A stretch of DNA of 64,000 bases from NCBI RefSeq assembly GCF_009914755.1, contig NC_060925.1; one strand, written 5' to 3'. The notes beneath the pieces are model-generated. The model had not been told where the DNA came from. It ran no database searches and saw only the letters and a list, made by a program, of their open reading frames with translations. Origin of the DNA: the human T2T-CHM13v2.0 reference genome, Homo sapiens. Within the stretch, counting starts at the first letter, position 1; each line of letters opens with the position of its first letter. Of this stretch, positions 6,941 through 60,148 are shown piece by piece. The translations under genes and the position numbers were made by a program.

Positions 6941-8351
6941 ATATTTATTTTTCAAGATAATGAAGTTGAAGATATACAATACAACAATGTTAAGCTGTAT
7001 TCATAATTAGTAGAGATTTTCCATAGCAGCAAAATATTATGTGATCATGATTATTTTAGATGACTAAGAAAATTTAATAAATGATATAATATTAAATAAA
7101 TCTCAAATATTCCTGGGAAAATTATCATCTATTATTTGAAATTTCTGAAAAATATGTGTTTAGTGGCAGTGTTGGCTATCTGTGCTGTTAATTAATGGAG
7201 TTGAAAGAAATGAAATGCTTTCAGGTTTTATTAGATATAATGTGTCTATAAATAGCAAATGTTTTACAGCAATGACCTCTTCCATGTTGTTAAATATATA
7301 CAAAGGATACAGAGGCTTCCAAGTTTTTCACAGTAAGCATTATGCATAAGCTTAGGTATCATAAACTACGTATTGATAAGCAGCCTGTATTTATCAAAAA
7401 TATGGTACTTGATAATGTAAAAAAAGAAGTAATTCAACTTAATTTGTACTAACTAGTCAAATTATGTTAATTTTGATCAAGTAAGTGAGAATACTACTAT
7501 ATTGGGATTCCCAATTGCAAGCAAACTAATTCAGGCTGATTTAAGTAAAACAAACAAACTTATTTTGATGTATTTATGGCTCGTGTGACAGAGGCGAATA
7601 ACTTTTGAAAAGATGTACTTTTCTTATATCAAATAGGATTGTTGCTGAGGAATTGTTGCAACCTATGGACTGTAAGTATATTTCCCTTCACCTGTGAGTT
7701 CATGTGTGTTTGGTATCTGGGTCTCACCAAGGAGAATGCACAGGAGACAGGATTTTTTTTTTTTTTTTAAGTAGAGTAACTTTTCCATGCCGTCTTTTCT
7801 TTTGCTCTAACCACAAATGTTGAAGAAGTCCTAGAGGTTTAGAATGAAAACAGCCTGAGTCATCCACTACCAAAACACCCTCTAAGGTTGTTAAATTGAT
7901 AAGAAAGGAACTTCCATGCTTTAGGCTACTGAAATTGTGTTGATTTATTACAACAACTGCCATAGTTACCTTAACTGGTAAATTCACAGATTTGTTGGAA
8001 TCCTGACCAAACTGGAAAAGTGGCAGTAACCATGGAAAAGTCAAAGACAAAATGACAGCCAAATCACACCAGTAAATAAGTGGAGTGAAGACACGTCTGT
8101 TTTCACAGCTGAACACTGGAAATTGCAAATTTGATTGCCACTGGCATTGGATGCTGGAACTGCTTCTGTTTTTACTGACACTAGCATACCGGGATACTTC
8201 GAAGTTGCTGTAGTCTCTGCAATATTGAGTGTTGGAAGGTGCTAGAAAATGAGTGTCTGTCTTTTTTGTCTTTTATACTGGAAGGCAATCACCTAGACCT
8301 ATGCTGGAGAGTCATCCTACAAGGTCATTCAAATGTACAATAAACTGGTAT

Positions 8352-8790
8352 GTGTATTAGTTACTTATTACAGTACAATAAGTTAATCACAAATATGAAT
8401 GACTAAAACAAAAAATGTTTAGTATCTTGCAGTTTCTCTGGTCAGGAATGTATTGGCAGCTTAACTGAGTGGTTCTAGCTCAAGGTCTTTCATGAAGGAC
8501 CTGGTAGGGGCTGCAGGCATCTGCTGTCTTGACAGGAGCTGGGGAATTTGCTTACACGGTGACCCACTCACATGGCCATTGGAAGGAGGCACCAATTTCC
8601 TGCCACATGGGCCTCTTCGTAGGACTACATTTGTGTTATCATGATGTAGCAGCTGGCTTCTCCAGCGTGAGTAACGTAAGGGGGAGGAAGACAGGCAGAA
8701 GCCACGATTTTTGTTATAACTTAGCCTCATAAACTACATGTCATCACTTCTGTCATATTTATTGATCACATAAAGCAACAATGATATAAA
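8352..8790 (-). mobile_element. MLT1H-like MaLR LTR
   Basis: TGTATTAGTT terminus, GGTCAGGAAT..GCAGCTTAACTGAGTGGTTCT..GGTCTTTCATGA, CACTCACATGGC. Confidence 0.65.
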
Positions 8791-9229
8791 GAAGAAGAGT
8801 AGAGTTTATTTCATCACTTACATTTCAATTTTGGCTACTTAATTTTAATCATAGAGTCTACAATAGGGGTTTATTTTATTAATCCAAGTAGTACCAAATA
8901 TTACTCTGAGTTTGTTTAATTAATATCCCTATGAATTCCTGGGGTTTCAGTCCACTTTGGGAAGAGGCTAGTTTGTTTTCATATCTTAAAAGTGAGTAAT
9001 ATCAGCATTGTTGGTAATTCTATACCTTCATATTCCCAAAGTAGTATCAAGCAAATACATGGTAAGAGTGAGCATGAGAAGTTGATGCTGTTCAGTTATC
9101 TGGATAGCAGGCTAAGCATTATTGATAGAAAAATCTGCAGCTATACTCAGAAAACTCAGAACTTCATGGCAACTTTTTTTTAAATTAAAATACAGTTCTT
9201 AAGGTTTCAAAGTTTTATTTCTGTTTTTG

Positions 9230-9978
9230 TCAAATAAAACTGTTCTTTCAGAGACCAATAGTTAGAGGAAGAAACAAATTATATGGACCTCTGGTACAAT
9301 TTCCCAATCTGTGAGCTACCAGACCTGAGTGTTTTGGTAAGAGGTCCACAAAATCAAATATAACATTCCATTGTCTGCAGACCAGTTAATGACTGCATAG
9401 TATTTTAATGTATGTCATATGTACAAATACAAAAATATCCTCCAAAATGGGAAGATTGGGAACACAAATTAGAGCCATCAAATAAAACTGTTCTTTCAGA
9501 GACCAATAGTTAGAGGAAGAAACAAATTATATGGACCTCTGGTACAATTTCCCAATCTGTGAGCTACCAGACCTGAGTGTTTTGGTAAGAGGTCCACAAA
9601 ATCAAATATAACATTCCATTGTCTGCAGACCAGTTAATGACTGCATAGTATTTTAATGTATGTCATATGTACAAATACAAAAATATCCTCCAAAATGGGA
9701 AGATTGGGAACACAAATTAGAGCCATCAAATAAAACTGTTCTTTCAGAGACCAATAGTTAGAGGAAGAAACAAATTATATGGACCTCTGGTACAATTTCC
9801 CAATCTGTGAGCTACCAGACCTGAGTGTTTTGGTAAGAGGTCCACAAAATCAAATATAACATTCCATTGTCTGCAGACCAGTTAATGACTGCATAGTATT
9901 TTAATGTATGTCATATGTACAAATACAAAAATATCCTCCAAAATGGGAAGATTGGGAACACAAATTAGAGCCATCAAA
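9230..9978. repeat. Perfect tandem triplication of a 248-bp unit
   Basis: Units start at 9231, 9479 and 9727; no differences found by eye; TCAAA microhomology at the junctions and ends. Confidence 0.97.
9252..9336 (+). pseudogene. Candidate relic exon (repeated at 9500-9584 and 9748-9832)
   Basis: TGTTCTTTCAG acceptor and TTG|GTAAGA donor; DQ*LEEETNYMDLWYNFPICELPDLSVL. Confidence 0.45.
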
Positions 9979-10184
9979 AATGCACATTTTTCCAATTCCA
10001 GGTGACTGATTAATTTGTAAATGGATTCAACCATACTCTTTGGGTTTCAATTTTGTACAAGGCAATGCACACAAATACATATGTATCAACCAACAATTAG
10101 GATGTACATTTTATGTCTTAAATATCCTGTCATTGATATTTGAGTGGAGTTTTATTGGGATCCAATTGTATCTACTTTCTGCAG

Positions 10185-10352
10185 GGGACAAATTAGTTCA
10201 TACCTTATCTTGACTTATAGAGGAATTACTTTTTCAACAGTTTGGAGAGGTGTACAATTTACCATACCTTCTGACCTGTATTATCTTACTTTTACGGTGA
10301 ATAATAGCAACAAGATATTTTGATCAGAAAAATCCTGGTATTTACTACTGAG
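10185..10352 (+). pseudogene. Candidate relic exon (dynein NLPK region)
   Basis: TTTCTGCAG / GAG|GTAGTG; IEELLFQQFGEVYNLPYLLTCIILLLR*IIATRYF vs dynein E..L...L.D.NLPK....D..LF..II.DLF. Confidence 0.4.
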
Positions 10353-11034
10353 GTAGTGGTGAAATAAAATGACAAACATTCCTTATCTGATAAAAATATA
10401 TGCAAACCAGCTTTTGTCTTAACCAGTAGAATAATAAGAAATAGATTAGTTCCCTTCTCCATTTTCTGTAGCCTTATATTTGTTTACCTATGCATGATGA
10501 AAAGCAGATTACTTTCTGATTACACTGAAGGGTTATTCATGTTATTTGGGGTATTATATTTTTAGGATTATGTATTATTGCATTTTATTGTAAAAACGTA
10601 TGCTGTAGTCTTATGGAATAATAAAGTAATGACTATGTCATAAAGAAATAATGTAAACATTGACTTAATTTCTTGGCAATACTTTATAACAAGTATTTCT
10701 TATGGCTTACAGGAAAATTAGTAGTTTCTGCACTTAATTTATTGTTTAACTCATTATAATTTCAATTTATTTCCTAGCATCCCACTACCTAAATAGCTTT
10801 TAATAAAGTTGCTTATTATCTCGAGTCTCTTTTTTTCTCTGATTTTATTTTAGTTTTTACTGTTCAGAAAATCTGTCTGGCATTTTACACTTTACTACAC
10901 AACTCATCCTTCTCAAGACTCTCTCATTACCTGGCTTTTGGGACACTGCGGCTTCAGGTTTGCCTACTTTTCTGAGCCATTTTCCATCCCTACTTTCATT
11001 TCTCCCTCCCTCCTTTCCTTCCTATCTGTCTTTC

Positions 11035-11095
11035 TTATTTATTTATTTATTTATTCATTCACTCATTCATTCATTCATTCATTCATTCATTCATT
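11035..11095. repeat. (TTTA)n(TTCA)n microsatellite
   Basis: Direct observation. Confidence 0.85.
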
Positions 11096-11209
11096 TTTGG
11101 CTACTCTTGCTTATCCTGATCCTTTTATGCTTTTATTCTAAAGCTTTTGCATTTGCTGTTTTTTTAAAACTTTATTTATTAGTGTTTCTTAATTTTAACT
11201 TCACATAGC

Positions 11210-11352
11210 AATCACCAGGTAAGTTTTTCTAACACAGCAACACCTGGCCCCAACCACAGAAATGTTGTTTATGGGGTGAATCCTGGGTATTTTATTTTTT
11301 TAAAAAAAGCTTCCTAGGTAGCTTTAAACTGTAGACAGATTTGAGAACCACT
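11210..11352. mobile_element. MER5-type hAT-Charlie MITE fragment
   Basis: AATCACCAGG...CCTGGCCCCAACCACAGA...TTTGAGAACCACT terminal motif. Confidence 0.6.
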
Positions 11353-12962
11353 ACTATTTACATTTTCGTAGAGTGATCTCATCCACTCATAAAACTTCAA
11401 CTACCTACTTTACACAGAAGATTTATAAATATGTATCAGCAGCTCTAGCTTGTCTCCTAAGCCCTTGCCTGTTATACATACTTGCCAGTTTGGATTCTTT
11501 CTTTTCTTCTTTCAATCATTGAATGTTTTTTAAGTGCTACCATGTGCTAGACACTGTGCTAGACATGAGGATTCAGACATGAGCTACACATAGTTCCAGC
11601 TCTCAGGGACTTTGAGAAGCACAGTATATGGAATAAAGACAACAGACAACTAAATGTTACGGTGTCATAGTCTAGAAAGGGGTAAGAAGAGGAGGATATA
11701 GGACATGAATATAAACCAGATTAGGGCAGATGTTTATAATTTTCACGAATTTAATCCTGGATATGTATGAAAGGCAAAACATATCTTAAAAATAGAAATA
11801 AATTTCCAGGTATAAAAGATATGGCATGGAGAGAGAGAAGATAAATCTCAGGAATAGACACAAGGAAAACTAGGATGGAATTGGGGCAGCACCCATAGAG
11901 GCTTCTCCTTCAGAGCTTCTTCCTATTAATGATTTCCTAGTGAAATACTTTTATGCCTTTACTTCATAGAACAAATTTATCTGTTACTGAAAGAATTTTG
12001 GTCAAAATTTATATTTATGCCCTCAAATGCAAAACAATATATTGGAAATCTCATTACTTTCCAAAACAATTGGTAAAATGTCTGATTCATGTGTAGATGT
12101 TTGAAAACTCACGTTGACTATCAGCAATAGGGACATGCATCTCCATTGCTACTGGTGCTGTTAGAAGATTCACATTCCCATACCCTATTCATTCCTCTCT
12201 CTGGATACTTTGTCACCATCCTGAATTTTTTTTTTCTTTTCATTTTTAGCTTTTGTTCTTGCCTACAGTCATGTAATGAGGAACAAAAATTAAAACAAAA
12301 AAATAGAAAGAATGCTCACACAAAAGGTAATAAGAGGTTTGATGAAAGTGATTACATTTGAAGCACTACAAGTATATACAAAGAAAATGACTAGCAAGAT
12401 TACAAGCAAAGATGCATTTTGCAATTTGTGCATATTGGAGCATTGACCAGCTGCCCTGCAGAGTTACTGAGCCTTCTTGTCTTAGAGTCCTTTGATGCAC
12501 CAAAATAGTGGAAACTGTCAGTTCCTCTGAGTCTGGTAATTAGCTGAAATTTACTCTTCAACACCCATCTATTCAGCACCATAATGTTTCATAACCAGTG
12601 ACATACTGTGCCTGCTTCAAACCTACTCTCTTCTCCGTCTTTAAGCTTTTAAAGCTTTTATTCCCCTTCTCACTTGAGAATAAAACTTTTTTCATGAAAT
12701 CACCTTGCTTTTTTTTAATTAAACATTTTTTATTTTCTTTGTTCTAACAAAAATGTATTCATTTGTGGATTTTTTGCCTTGTTATATTGTAAATGCCAAC
12801 ATTTATGGCCTGGGATGCAAACACTACACATTATTGAATAAAAATCAATGGCTTATTAACAAACATATTGATTGTTTAGTAATGAGATGAAGATATGTTT
12901 ACATATCATGCACTCTGACCCTATCAATTGTAATGAATCTAAGTTTTTTTCAAATGTTGTAG

Positions 12963-16920: not shown

Positions 16921-18615
16921 TTTTTACAGTAGGTCATCAGGAAGACATGAGCAGGGCAGGAGAGGGCTCCCCCTGCAACCAGGAATGTCAGGCAACCATT
17001 AGGTGATGGTCAGGGAGTTGTTAATTGTCTCTCTAAAATAATAATTTTTCACAGCCAGTGCCAGGGAAAGGCAGTCTCCCTATAGATAGGAAAAAAATCA
17101 AAACAAAAAAACTGGTGATCAGCAACTTCCTAATAAGATCTCAGGAGTTGGGTGACTAAGCTTATGCGTGAAGGGGTGGCCTGCCCCTCCATACCTGTGG
17201 GTGTTTCTCATCAGGTGAAACGAGAGACTTGAGAAAAGAAAGAGACACAGAGACAAAGTATAGAGAAAGAAAAGTGGGCCCAGGGGACCGGTGCTCAGCA
17301 TACGGAGGACCCATGCTGGCACCAGTCTCTGAGTTCCCTCAGTGTTTATTGATCATTATCTCTACCATCTCAGAGAGGGGGATGTGGCAGGACAATAGGG
17401 TAATAGTGGAGAGAGGGTCAACAGGAAAACATGTGAACAAATGTCTCTGCATCATAAACAAGGTAAAGAAAAAAGTGCTGTGCTTTTCATGTGCATATAC
17501 ATAAACATCTCAATGCCTTAAAGAGCAGTATTGCCTCCAGCATGTCTCACCTCCAGCCCTAAGGCGGTTTTTCTCCTATCTCAGTAGATGGAATATACAA
17601 TCGGGTTTTACACCAAGACACATTCCATTGCCCAGGGACGAGCTGGAGACAGATGCCTTCCTCTTATCTCAACTGCAAAGAGGCCTTCCTCTTTTACTAA
17701 TCCTCCTCAGCACAGACCCTCTACCGGTGTCGGGCTGGGGGACGGTCAGGTGTTTCCCTTCCCACAAGGCCATATTTCAGACTATCACATGGGGAGAAAC
17801 CTTGGAAAATACATGGCATTCCTAGACAGAGGTCCCTGAGGCCTTCTGCAGTGTTTTGTGTCCCTGGGTACTTGAGAGTAGGGAGTGGTGATGACTTTTA
17901 ACAAGCAAGCTGCCTTCAAGCATTTGTTTAACAAAGCACATCCTGCATAGCCCTAAATCCATTTGACCTTGAGTCAAGACAGCATATGTCTCTGCGAGCA
18001 CGGGGTTGGGGGTAGGGTTACAGATTAACAGCATCTCAAGGCAGAAGAATTTTTCTTAGTACAGAACAAAATGGAGTCTCTTATGTCTACTTCTTTCTAC
18101 ATAGACACAGTAACAGTCTGATCTCTCTTTCTTTTCCCCACACATGCGTGCACATTAAGAGGCAAAATGGCGGAGCATAACTGTTATGTGATCTTCCAGG
18201 GGCATTTGGCGGAAGGGAAGAATGCCTCAAGTGAGGATGCATTCAACTCCAGTAAACACACTGTGCATGCTCCCCTCCCAAGCACATTAGGCCACTGTAC
18301 ATGCGGATAGCCCACCCTACAGGAAGAATCAGGGCAGAAGAGATGCAAGACCCCAGAAGCATGCCAACATAGAAATCCCCAAGTCAAAACGTAAAACCAC
18401 ACACTTGTCCTTCAAGTCACCCACTTGACCCTCTTCAAAGTTTCATTCCTTTCCATCATTTCATTCCTGCTCTAAAGCTTTTTAATAAGCTTTCACTCCT
18501 GCTCTAAGACTTGACTTGGCATCTTCTTTTACCTATGTCTCTCAGTCGATTCTTTCTTCTGAGGAGCCATGACTTGAGGTTGCTGCAGACCTCCAGGGAT
18601 TTGATGTCAGTAACA
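16921..18615 (+). mobile_element. MER50-type ERV1 5' LTR (interrupted by LTR5)
   Basis: CCAGGAATGTCAGGCAACCATTAGGTGATGGTCAGG...; resumes at 18143; ends GTAACA at 18615, followed by a PBS. Confidence 0.8.
17169..18142 (-). mobile_element. HERV-K(HML-2) solo LTR, LTR5B/A-like, 974 bp
   Basis: Reverse complement starts TGTGGGGAAAAGAAAGAGAGATCAGACTG and ends CCACCCCTTCA; 6-bp TSD TATGCG (17163-17168) / CATGCG (18143-18148). Confidence 0.93.
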
Positions 18616-44070: not shown

Positions 44071-44265
<195 letters not shown>

Positions 44266-46810: not shown

Positions 46811-47679
46811 GTTTCACTTCCATTTAGTGCCACTAACTGTAAATTTTTATTAACAGGTGCCTCACATTGGCTGAGGCTATTAACAAATGTCTGCTTTTGA
46901 TAGCGTGGGCCCCTGAGAACATCTCCTGGGCTGCAAAGAGCGACTCACTCTTCTGGACCTGTAAAGTTACATCTTAGCTTCTGGACATTTACATCCAATG
47001 TGAAAGGAAGGGTGGTCTTTATACCTCCTTGGGAATTTGCCAGGCTGTATGCCAGATGTAAATAGGCAGAGCATCAGAAAATTGTCTCATAGTTCTGGGA
47101 CAGCTAAACAGGGCTGGATAAGAGGGAGAACTGTGAGAGGCAGCTATGTTGGCCCTCACCCTCACATGAGATCGTTCAGAGTGTGTGGGCAAAATGGGGA
47201 AGTCTACAGGGTAGTGAAGGCAGCTACTGAAAATGGAACAATTAGGGAGTAAAACTACTGAGCAAGGAAATGTTTTTTTTTTTTTTAATTTAAGAAGTGT
47301 AATATTATCTGTGTTTTCTGCAATGAGGGAAGAGTTTGAATCTCTGAACCAGTTTGTGGCACTCTTCTAATCAAAAAGTAAGCAGAGTAAGATCTTTGTT
47401 ATTACCACTGTGGGAAGAAAAATAAGAGGCTCTGCATGAGGGACATAGACAATGAGTCTGTAGAATCAATCACATATGGAGAAAAGCCAAGTCTGGATAA
47501 AAAGAAATGGGCAGTACATGTTATAGTGGATATAGAGTGAGTGAGTATCTCTGAAAATGCAAGTAACAAACAGTCTGACTCTATTTTGAGCAAGCAGTTA
47601 AGTGGAACTAAGAATTTTCAGTTAAATATAGAAACCAGAATTACTGATATATTTCTTTCCACTTTCCTAGTATGGAATA

Positions 47680-47890
47680 TTATTAAGCTGAAAAAAAGAC
47701 AGTCAAAATATCTTGACAATATAAAATAAAAGATTAAGATTTAATAAATATATTCTTCAAGTTCATCTAGCTAGAAGTATTTAAAAATTATTAAGCTGAA
47801 AAAAGAGATCTAGAATATCTTAACAATATAAAATAAAAAATTAAGATTTAGTAGGTAGAGATATTCTTCAAGTTTATCTAGCTAAAATTT
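47680..47890. repeat. Diverged ~108-bp tandem duplication
   Basis: TTATTAAGCTGAAAAAA...TATTCTTCAAGTT(C/T)ATCTAGCTA starting at 47680 and 47788. Confidence 0.85.
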
Positions 47891-48071
47891 TTCAAAAATT
47901 CATAGGAGAAAGAAATTGAAGATAGAGCACAAGAATTTTGGTTTTAATCTGTAGTTTTTGTGAGATTTTTGTGTTTAATGAAGTTAACCATAAAATGACA
48001 ATAGCATGAGTTGGTCATTCTCAGTTTCACTAAAGCACCCATGTATGTCCCAACATAAAACAAAGCTAATT

Positions 48072-54578: not shown

Positions 54579-56005
54579 GGAGAGGTGACAACGTGCTAGC
54601 AGCTTTTGCTCGCTCTCAGCACCTCCGTGTCCACTCTGGCTGTGCTTGAGGAGCGCTTCAGCCCACCCCTGCATCGTGGGATCCCCTGTCTGGGCTGGCC
54701 GAGGCCGGAGCCGGCTCCCTCTGCTTGCAGGGAGGTGTGGAGGGAGAGACCAGGGCGGGAACCTGGGCTCCGCACGCGGAACTGGCCGGCCAGCGCACGT
54801 TCAGGGTGGGCACAGGCTTGGCAGGCCCTGCACTTGGAGCAGCCAGCCAGTGCCGCCAGCCCCAGGCAGTGAGTGGCTTAGCACCTGGGCCAGCAGCTGC
54901 GGAGGGGGCACCGGGTCCCCCAGCACTGCCGGCCCACCCATGCAGCACTCGAATTCTCGGCCGGGCCTCACCCACCTCCCCGTGGGGCAGGGCTCGGGAC
55001 CTGCAGCCCGCCATGCCAGAGCCCTCCCACCCCGTGGTGGGCTCCCGCGCAGCCCGAGCCTCCTGGATGAGCAACACCCCCCCTGCTCTGTAGCACCAGG
55101 TCCCATCCACTGCCTGAGGAGTGCAGGTGTGTGTGGCGTGGGGACTGGCGGGCAGCTCTGCCCTGCCACCCTGGTGTGGGATCCACTAGGGGAAGCCAGC
55201 TGGGCTTCTGAGTTGGGTGGGGACTTGAAGAACTTTTATGTCTAGCTGGAGGATTGTATATGCACCAGTCAGCACTGTGTCTAGCTCAAGGATTGTATAT
55301 GCACCAATCAGCACTCTGTATCTAGCTAATCTGGTGGGGACTTGGAGAACCTTTAGGTCTAGCTAGAGGATTGTAAATACACCAATCAGCACTCTGTCTA
55401 GCTCAGGGATTATAAACGCACCAATCGGCACCCTGTCAAAACAGACCAATCAGCTCTCTGTAAAATGGACCAATCAGCTCTCTGTAAAATGGACCAATCA
55501 GCTCTCTGTAAAATGAGCCAATCAGCAGAATGTGGGCAGGGTCAAATAAGGGAATAAAAGCAGGCTGCCTGAGCCAGCAGCGGCAACCTGCTCCCGTCCC
55601 CTTTCACACTGTGGAAAGTTTGTTCTTTCACTCTTCGTAATAAATCTTGTTGCTGCTCACTCTTTGGGTTTGCACTGCCTTTATGAGCTGTAACACTCAC
55701 TGTGAAGGTTTGTAGCTTCACTCCTGAGGCCAGCGAGACCACAAACCAAACCCATCAGAAGGGTTGAACAACTCCAGATGTGCCGCCTTTGAGAACTGTA
55801 ATACTCACTGTGAATGTCTGCAGCTTCACTCCTGAAGTGAGAGAGACCACGAACCCACCAGAAGGGAGAAATTCTGGACACATCTGAACATCTGAAGGAA
55901 CAAACTCCAGACACATAGTCTTTAAGAACTGTAACAGTCACCATGAGGGTCTGTGGCTTCATTCTTGAAGTCAGTAAGACCAAGAACCCACCAATTCTGT
56001 ACACG
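54579..56005 (+). mobile_element. ERV9 solo LTR (LTR12C/D/E-type)
   Basis: GAGAGGTGACAACGTGCTAGCAG start, GC-rich U3, CCAATCAGC repeats, CCAATTCTGTACAC end; 4-bp TSD TGAC/TGAT. Confidence 0.93.

Positions 56006-59288: not shown

Positions 59289-60148
<860 letters not shown>

What the first reader, a model, noticed from the sequence alone, without database searches (positions are those of the whole stretch)
9230..9978. Perfect 3 x 248-bp tandem triplication of unique sequence with TCAAA microhomology
Seen: three apparently identical 248-bp units start at 9231, 9479 and 9727, and the array is bounded by TCAAA (3 x 248 + 5 bp). The other duplications of ~50 bp or more in the window are diverged, so zero divergence implies a very recent event. 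Likely mechanism is microhomology-mediated slippage/MMBIR followed by unequal crossover, probably giving a copy-number-variable locus. An assembly or constructed artefact is the alternative. The unit is not a recognisable transposon.
Basis: seen in the sequence. Interest (0 to 1): 0.8.

Follow-up and report, generated by a model that had tools for sequence, protein, structure and literature searches.

The report
Young perfect 248-bp tandem triplication
A 248-base stretch of otherwise unique, non-coding human DNA sits three times head to tail without a single difference, bounded by a 5-base repeat, which is the ordinary signature of a young microhomology-born tandem duplication that has begun to grow into a minisatellite.

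Summary
Window 9230-9978 is 3 x 248 bp at 100% identity plus a closing TCAAA. The unit, and 1 kb to its right, match nowhere else in the 3.1-Gb assembly. It has no Rfam match, no Pfam match above cut-off, no ORF over 54 aa and no unusual fold.

The anatomy is MH-(core-MH)x3, the defining layout of microhomology-mediated tandem duplication (MTD). That class is already described as pervasive in human genomes (PMC13167724). A junction microhomology of 5 bp or more arises by chance in 0.8% of random placements. A perfect 10-bp hairpin straddles the left breakpoint.

"Zero divergence means very recent" is overstated. With 744 bp and no CpG, zero differences only bound the origin to roughly 8-15 My or less, with a median of about 2-3.5 My.

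Copy number in other humans and apes, read support and the exact pathway could not be tested here. An assembly artefact is unlikely on the published accuracy of T2T-CHM13 (PMC9186530).

Verdict: real, ordinary, a new member of a known kind, of low interest.

The parts
9230..9477 (.). tandem unit 1 (248 bp; begins with the TCAAA microhomology arm)
   Evidence: identical to units 2 and 3; unique in the genome
9478..9725 (.). tandem unit 2 (248 bp)
   Evidence: 100% identical
9726..9973 (.). tandem unit 3 (248 bp)
   Evidence: 100% identical
9974..9978 (.). closing TCAAA, the right-hand microhomology arm (the ancestral right breakpoint)
   Evidence: exactly 5 bp shared with 9230-9234; the match stops on both sides
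9211..9241 (.). perfect 10-bp inverted repeat (arms 9211-9220 and 9232-9241, 11-nt loop). The left breakpoint and TCAAA arm (9230-9234) lie in its loop and right arm.
   Evidence: (I5), 15, 32: DNA hairpin -5.5 kcal/mol, z -2.29, 5 of 200 shuffles fold as well; only 0.84% of window positions lie in such a hairpin

Best explanation
This is a real, evolutionarily young tandem array born from unique, non-coding DNA by microhomology-mediated tandem duplication (MTD). The ancestral single-copy allele read TCAAA-243 bp-TCAAA. In step 1 (1x to 2x), a DNA 3' end or flap carrying one TCAAA re-annealed at the other TCAAA 248 nt away during replication or replication-coupled repair. The segment was then copied or ligated in twice. 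The AT-rich hairpin at the left breakpoint may have helped by stalling synthesis or shielding a flap. In step 2 (2x to 3x), the two perfect 248-bp copies misaligned out of register, by slippage, unequal sister-chromatid exchange or out-of-register re-annealing. This is a far more frequent kind of event than step 1. The result is a nascent minisatellite/VNTR with no evident function, expected to vary in copy number among people. Shown: the anatomy, the uniqueness and the non-random microhomology. Inferred: both steps, their order, the enzymes involved and the polymorphism.
For: The layout is exactly MH-(core-MH)x3, with 749 = 3 x 248 + 5. A junction microhomology of 5 bp or more occurs in 0.787% of 200,000 random 248-bp placements in this window. 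The unit and right flank have no other match in the 3.1-Gb genome at E up to 10. The same search detected 41 old dispersed matches (65-86% identity) to the left flank, so it is sensitive to old repeats. There is no coding or RNA signal. A hairpin sits at the left breakpoint. From the literature (PMC13167724, abstract, passages and sections 10 and 12): MTD is described as the major source of tandem duplication. Nearly 80% of perfect arrays of 3 or more copies in hg38 and nearly 90% of variable loci carry microhomology arms. Expansion from 2x to 3x is documented, and loss of Rad27/FEN1 raises the rate 7-10 fold in yeast. PMC12350158 (passages) counts 15,295 tandem-duplication insertions among 1,019 people.
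Against: No 1x or 2x allele was seen, because no other human or ape sequence is reachable, so the ancestral state is inferred only. Zero divergence does not date the event tightly. The hairpin statistic is post hoc and modest (5 of 200 and 7 of 200 shuffles fold as well), and the right breakpoint shows no structure (z 0.27). At 248 bp the unit is long compared with the MTDs characterised in microbes, where units under 50 bp make up 38-51%. The unit-size distribution for human arrays was not seen. No read-level check of the assembly was possible.
Confidence: 0.75

Rival explanations
1. Old array, not a recent birth. The locus is a long-standing VNTR, shared with other apes or fixed in humans, whose few copies are kept identical by repeated contraction and expansion or by gene conversion. 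On this reading the perfect identity reflects turnover rather than origin time.
For: Zero differences over 744 bp allow an origin up to about 8-15 My ago even without homogenisation. Tandem arrays are known to turn over.
Against: The array has only three copies. The microhomology arms are intact and the edges are sharp, with no partial or decayed units at either end. The older long-period arrays nearby are visibly decayed, at 66-95%.
Confidence: 0.12
2. Artefact or culture-born change. The extra copies come from an assembly or consensus error in T2T-CHM13, or from a somatic expansion in the CHM13hTERT cell line rather than a germline allele.
For: A perfectly identical triplication is what a graph mis-walk or a very recent clonal event would give. 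No reads could be inspected here.
Against: The 749-bp array is far shorter than the 20-kb, 0.1%-error HiFi reads the assembly is built from. The published consensus accuracy is about 1 error per 10 Mb, and flagged issues cover 0.3% of the assembly (PMC9186530, passages). The clean microhomology junction is a biological signature rather than an assembler signature.
Confidence: 0.06
3. One-step triplication. A single replication accident with two successive template switches at the same TCAAA (serial FoSTeS/MMBIR, or rolling re-copying) made 3x directly from 1x, with no 2x intermediate.
For: Both internal junctions are identical and no difference marks an order of events. A stalling hairpin sits at the breakpoint.
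Against: The two-step route leaves the same sequence. In natural populations 3x alleles are found alongside far commoner 2x alleles (131 of 9,149 yeast loci with a 2x allele also reach 3x; PMC13167724 section 10).
Confidence: 0.07

Closest known systems
Microhomology-mediated tandem duplication (MTD) and its expansion into tandem repeats (Wei et al. 2026, PMC13167724; first described in fission yeast, 10.1101/2020.03.03.972455, seen in the search listing only)
   Same: A single-copy segment flanked by short direct repeats is copied head to tail, giving MH-(core-MH)n. The arm is 5 bp, the locus is non-coding and the copies are 100% identical. It matches the paper's class of perfect hg38 arrays with 3 or more copies (4,719 loci, nearly 80% with arms).
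   Different: The 248-bp unit is long relative to the microbial MTDs described, where units under 50 bp make up 38-51%. The 1x and 2x alleles were not observed here.
Haber and Louis model of minisatellite origin (as summarised in the introduction of PMC13167724; the original paper was not read)
   Same: [quoted passage not shown]
   Different: That model was drawn from yeast and classical minisatellites with short units. This array has only three copies of a long unit, so it is at the birth stage.
FoSTeS/MMBIR and Rad27/FEN1 flap-derived duplications (mechanism names recalled; Rad27 data from PMC13167724 section 12)
   Same: Replication-based joining at 1-15 bp of microhomology. Secondary structure near a breakpoint is a plausible trigger.
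   Different: FoSTeS/MMBIR is usually invoked for larger, often complex rearrangements with templated insertions. This junction is simple and clean, and no enzyme dependence can be read from sequence.
VNTR / tandem-duplication structural variants in long-read human cohorts (PMC12350158)
   Same: The size class and structure match. That study reports 15,295 tandem-duplication insertions and 34,006 VNTR insertions.
   Different: Polymorphism at this locus was not shown. Its coordinates were not found in that paper's one text-held supplement.

Membership tests
Microhomology-mediated tandem duplication (MTD) / nascent tandem repeat | Head-to-tail copies of one segment with identical junctions | tested here: met
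   3 x 248 bp, 100% identical
Microhomology-mediated tandem duplication (MTD) / nascent tandem repeat | Array = n x unit + one extra microhomology arm; arm of 3 bp or more and longer than chance | tested here: met
   5-bp arm (TCAAA), 749 = 3 x 248 + 5; P(5 bp or more) = 0.0079 in 200,000 random placements
Microhomology-mediated tandem duplication (MTD) / nascent tandem repeat | Duplicated segment is otherwise single-copy, with no donor elsewhere | tested here: met
   the only matches in the 3.1-Gb genome are the three units themselves (E up to 10). Caveat: the tool scores only the best candidates.
Microhomology-mediated tandem duplication (MTD) / nascent tandem repeat | A 1x (ancestral) allele exists in other haplotypes or sister species | not testable with these tools
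   No other human or ape assembly is held. An exact 32-mer scan of genome contigs, tried for stray human DNA, found 0.
VNTR / minisatellite | Copy number varies among individuals | not testable with these tools
   No population data are reachable. The coordinates are absent from the one text-held supplement of PMC12350158 and from full-text paper search.
Transposable element or TE-internal tandem repeat | Dispersed related copies in the genome; TE coding remnants | tested here: not met
   no dispersed match to the unit, although the same search found 41 old matches to window 8349-8799.: 6 of the 11 ORFs were scanned against Pfam and none reached a cut-off. The hub's list of masked stretches does not include 9230-9978.
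NAHR / segmental-duplication-mediated duplication | 100 bp or more of homology at the ancestral breakpoints | tested here: not met
   only 5 bp shared (first step). The 248-bp copies could support a homology-driven second step.
Assembly artefact | Not supported by spanning raw reads | not testable with these tools
   No reads are available. The published accuracy of the assembly argues against it (PMC9186530).

The most novel reading that the evidence does not exclude
The array is a private or rare human allele made in one step: a hairpin at 9211-9241 stalled replication and the nascent end re-primed twice at TCAAA, taking unique DNA straight from 1x to 3x. It would then be a caught-in-the-act birth of a long-unit minisatellite. 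Each copy also carries a strong splice acceptor/donor pair around an 85-nt pseudo-exon (9252-9336), which could be exonised in triplicate.
Probability: 0.07. Interest if true: 0.35.

Novelty: new member of a known kind. Interest (0 to 1): 0.15.

Why it matters
It matters little on its own. It is a clean, textbook-quality instance of how a tandem repeat is born from unique DNA: intact microhomology arms, zero decay, a long 248-bp unit and a hairpin at one breakpoint. It could serve as a teaching example, or as one data point in a genome-wide survey of long-unit MTDs. If polymorphic, it is a simple PCR-typable marker (248-bp ladder) in the gene desert distal to the amylase cluster (position relative to amylase recalled, not tested). 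No gene, annotated enhancer (the nearest is 17302-18023, per the hub table) or RNA overlaps it.

Tried and rejected
- TE origin: rejected. Neither the unit nor the right flank has a dispersed match. The left-flank repeat at window 8349-8799 ends about 430 bp before the array.
- Functional RNA: 0 Rfam matches at E up to 1 on 8000-11500. The unit fold is not unusual (z -0.58, 55 of 200 shuffles fold as well).
- Coding: the longest stop-to-stop ORF touching the array is 54 aa. 248 is not a multiple of 3. Six of the 11 ORFs were scanned against Pfam and none was near a cut-off (best E 0.061).
- Structure at the right breakpoint: none (z 0.27).
- Independent haplotypes: an exact 32-mer scan of genome contigs for stray human DNA found 0.
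- Coordinates in print: 0 hits in the one text-held supplement of PMC12350158, 0 papers in full-text search for six boundary coordinates, and no human locus tables in the two supplements of PMC13167724. Its SI Appendix PDF, which holds the human microhomology figure, could not be read.
- A wider base-rate sample: only 200 kb of neighbouring genome could be fetched.

Full report
**1. Observation**

The sequence at 9230-9978 reads as three identical 248-bp units followed by TCAAA.
- TRF reports period 248, 3.0 copies, 100% matches, 0% indels, score 1498.
- The gap-free repeat finder reports three 253-nt copies at 9230, 9478 and 9726, all 100%.
- A string comparison in a script confirms unit1 = unit2 = unit3.
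- The shared end motif is exactly 5 bp. The match runs 5 bases forward and 0 backward from the breakpoint. The base before is G vs A and the base after is T vs A.
- The unit is 35% G+C, like the window (36%), and has no CpG.

**2. Is it unusual?**

- In the window, TRF gives 34 rows. Apart from homopolymers and one (TTA)n, this is the only 100% row, and it is the only row with a period above 120.
- In 264,000 bases (the window plus the 200 kb upstream fetched), TRF with periods up to 2000 gives 89 rows, 9 of them with period 30 or more. One of those 9 is perfect (this one). The other 8 are 66-95% identical with about 2-5 copies.
- Of 18 direct-repeat families of 50 nt or more in the window, this is the only perfect tandem one. 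One dispersed pair reaches 99% over 148 nt (44093-44240 and 59814-59961).

**3. What the unit is not**

- Searching the whole 3.1-Gb assembly with one unit returns only the three units themselves.
- Unit 3 plus 1 kb of right flank, searched at E up to 10, returns only itself and the two other units.
- One kb of left flank plus unit 1 returns 44 matches. Three are the array. All 41 others fall in query 120-570 (window 8349-8799) at 65-86% identity. That is an old interspersed repeat, and it ends about 430 bp before the array.
- The search can therefore see old repeats, and it sees none in the unit. The tool warns that it scores only the best candidates and skips very common words, so a very old fragment below this sensitivity is not excluded.
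- The hub's list of masked stretches, which goes down to 178 bp, has no entry at 9230-9978.
- There is no Rfam match at E up to 1 on 8000-11500.
- The longest stop-to-stop ORF touching the array is 54 aa.
- Six of the 11 ORFs were scanned against Pfam. None came near a curated cut-off; the best E was 0.061.
- The unit does not fold better than shuffles (z -0.58).
- RefSeq annotates nothing here, and the nearest functional element is the enhancer at 17302-18023 (hub table).

**4. Anatomy and mechanism**

The array is MH-(core-MH)x3, with MH = TCAAA and a 243-bp core, so 749 = 3 x 248 + 5. I placed a 248-bp duplication at 200,000 random positions of a one-copy version of the window. Junction microhomology of 5 bp or more arose in 0.787% of them. 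For unit lengths of 100-1000 bp the figure was 0.78-0.85%. So the arm is unlikely to be coincidental.

A perfect 10-bp inverted repeat (9211-9220 and 9232-9241, 11-nt loop) straddles the left breakpoint. TCAAA (9230-9234) spans the end of the loop and the start of the right arm (pair I5).
- As single-stranded DNA it folds at -5.5 kcal/mol on the + strand (z -2.29; 5 of 200 shuffles fold as well) and at -5.4 on the - strand (z -1.94; 7 of 200).
- Only 0.84% of window positions lie inside any perfect hairpin with a stem of 10 or more and a loop of 3-20, and many of those are in simple TA-rich repeats.
- This was noticed after the fact, so the nominal rarity should be discounted.
- The right breakpoint shows nothing comparable (z 0.27).

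My reading has two steps. In the first (1x to 2x), a 3' end or flap bearing one TCAAA annealed at the other, 248 nt away, during replication or replication-coupled repair. The candidate routes are slippage or template switching, MMBIR, an unprocessed Okazaki 5' flap, or polymerase-theta end joining; these names are recalled. The hairpin could stall synthesis or shield a flap from FEN1, which is inference. In the second step (2x to 3x), the two perfect copies misaligned. A one-step route with two switches at the same arm leaves the same sequence and cannot be excluded from one haplotype.

**5. Age**

With zero differences, P0 = exp(-mu x 248 x (2T1 + T2)). I used mu = 0.5e-9 per bp per year, a recalled human rate.
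- The 95% upper bound is 8.1 My if all three copies are equally old, and 12.1 My for the first duplication if the third copy is new. The medians are 1.9 and 2.8 My.
- At 0.4e-9, which is reasonable for a CpG-free unit, the bounds are 10.1 and 15.1 My.

So "young" is right on an evolutionary scale, but "very recent" does not follow. The array could be private to CHM13, polymorphic, human-specific and fixed, or shared with African apes.

**6. Comparison with what is known**

- Wei et al. 2026 (PMC13167724; abstract, passages, sections 10 and 12) define MTD with exactly this layout.
  - In hg38 they count 423,331 perfect doublets and 4,719 perfect arrays of 3 or more copies with units of 8 bp or more.
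  - Over 50% and nearly 80% of these, respectively, have microhomology arms.
  - Nearly 90% of variable loci among about 3,000 genomes carry arms.
  - Expansion from 2x to 3x is rarer than the first step: 131 of 9,149 yeast loci.
  - Loss of Rad27/FEN1 raises de novo tandem duplications 7-10 fold in yeast.
  - Their introduction credits Haber and Louis with the model that tandem repeats start from non-repetitive DNA flanked by microhomology.
- The 1,019-genome long-read study (PMC12350158, passages) reports 15,295 tandem-duplication insertions and 34,006 VNTR insertions.
- Audano and Beck (PMC10904011, passages) note that tandem duplications are a common SV type that may arise with little or no homology.

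The class is therefore well known. This locus is a long-unit, birth-stage member.

I did not find the locus in print.
- Six boundary coordinates gave 0 papers.
- Four coordinate prefixes gave 0 hits in the one text-held supplement of PMC12350158.
- The two spreadsheets of PMC13167724 hold no human loci, and its SI PDF was unreadable here.

**7. Artefact?**

Nurk et al. (PMC9186530, passages) give three relevant figures for T2T-CHM13:
- 20-kb HiFi reads at 0.1% error;
- a consensus error rate of about 1 per 10 Mb;

A 749-bp array is spanned many times over by such reads, so a mis-assembly is unlikely. A culture-born or mosaic expansion cannot be excluded without reads.

**8. Verdict**

The feature is real and ordinary: a young microhomology-born tandem triplication (nascent VNTR) of unique non-coding DNA. 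Three things remain open: copy number in other haplotypes and species, read support, and which replication or repair route acted. Interest is low.

Noticed in passing
window 9240-9345 (and the same phase in units 2 and 3): Each unit carries a splice-acceptor-like tract (CTGTTCTTTCAG, AG at 9250-9251) and a strong donor-like site (TTG|GTAAGAG, GT at 9337-9338). These delimit an 85-nt pseudo-exon at 9252-9336, so the array holds three such pairs 248 bp apart. No transcript is annotated here. The consensus comparison is from memory and was not scored.
   Followed up: no
window 8349-8799: An old interspersed repeat. It has 41 matches elsewhere in the genome at 65-86% identity (73 candidates, 40 scored, so this is a lower bound). 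The family was not named, as no TE library is available.
   Followed up: partly
window 9974-9989: A small palindrome, AAAAAT-GCAC-ATTTTT, directly abuts the right TCAAA arm. It is not better than shuffles (z 0.27).
   Followed up: yes
window 47679-47900: An older tandem duplication of a 107-bp unit (2.0 copies, 84% matches, 6% indels; D17/D18). It shows what such an event looks like after long decay.
   Followed up: no
window 55216-55526 and 55677-55988: Nested tandem repeats of 24, 39 and 117 bp rich in CCAATCAGC motifs, plus three 71-nt copies at 76-83% (D9/D12). They lie inside stretches the hub lists as masked. They are probably the internal repeats of an interspersed (LTR-like) element, which is a recalled impression and was not tested.
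   Followed up: no
window 11037-11095: An (ATTC)n microsatellite with 14.8 copies at 94% matches, 1 kb downstream of the array.
   Followed up: no
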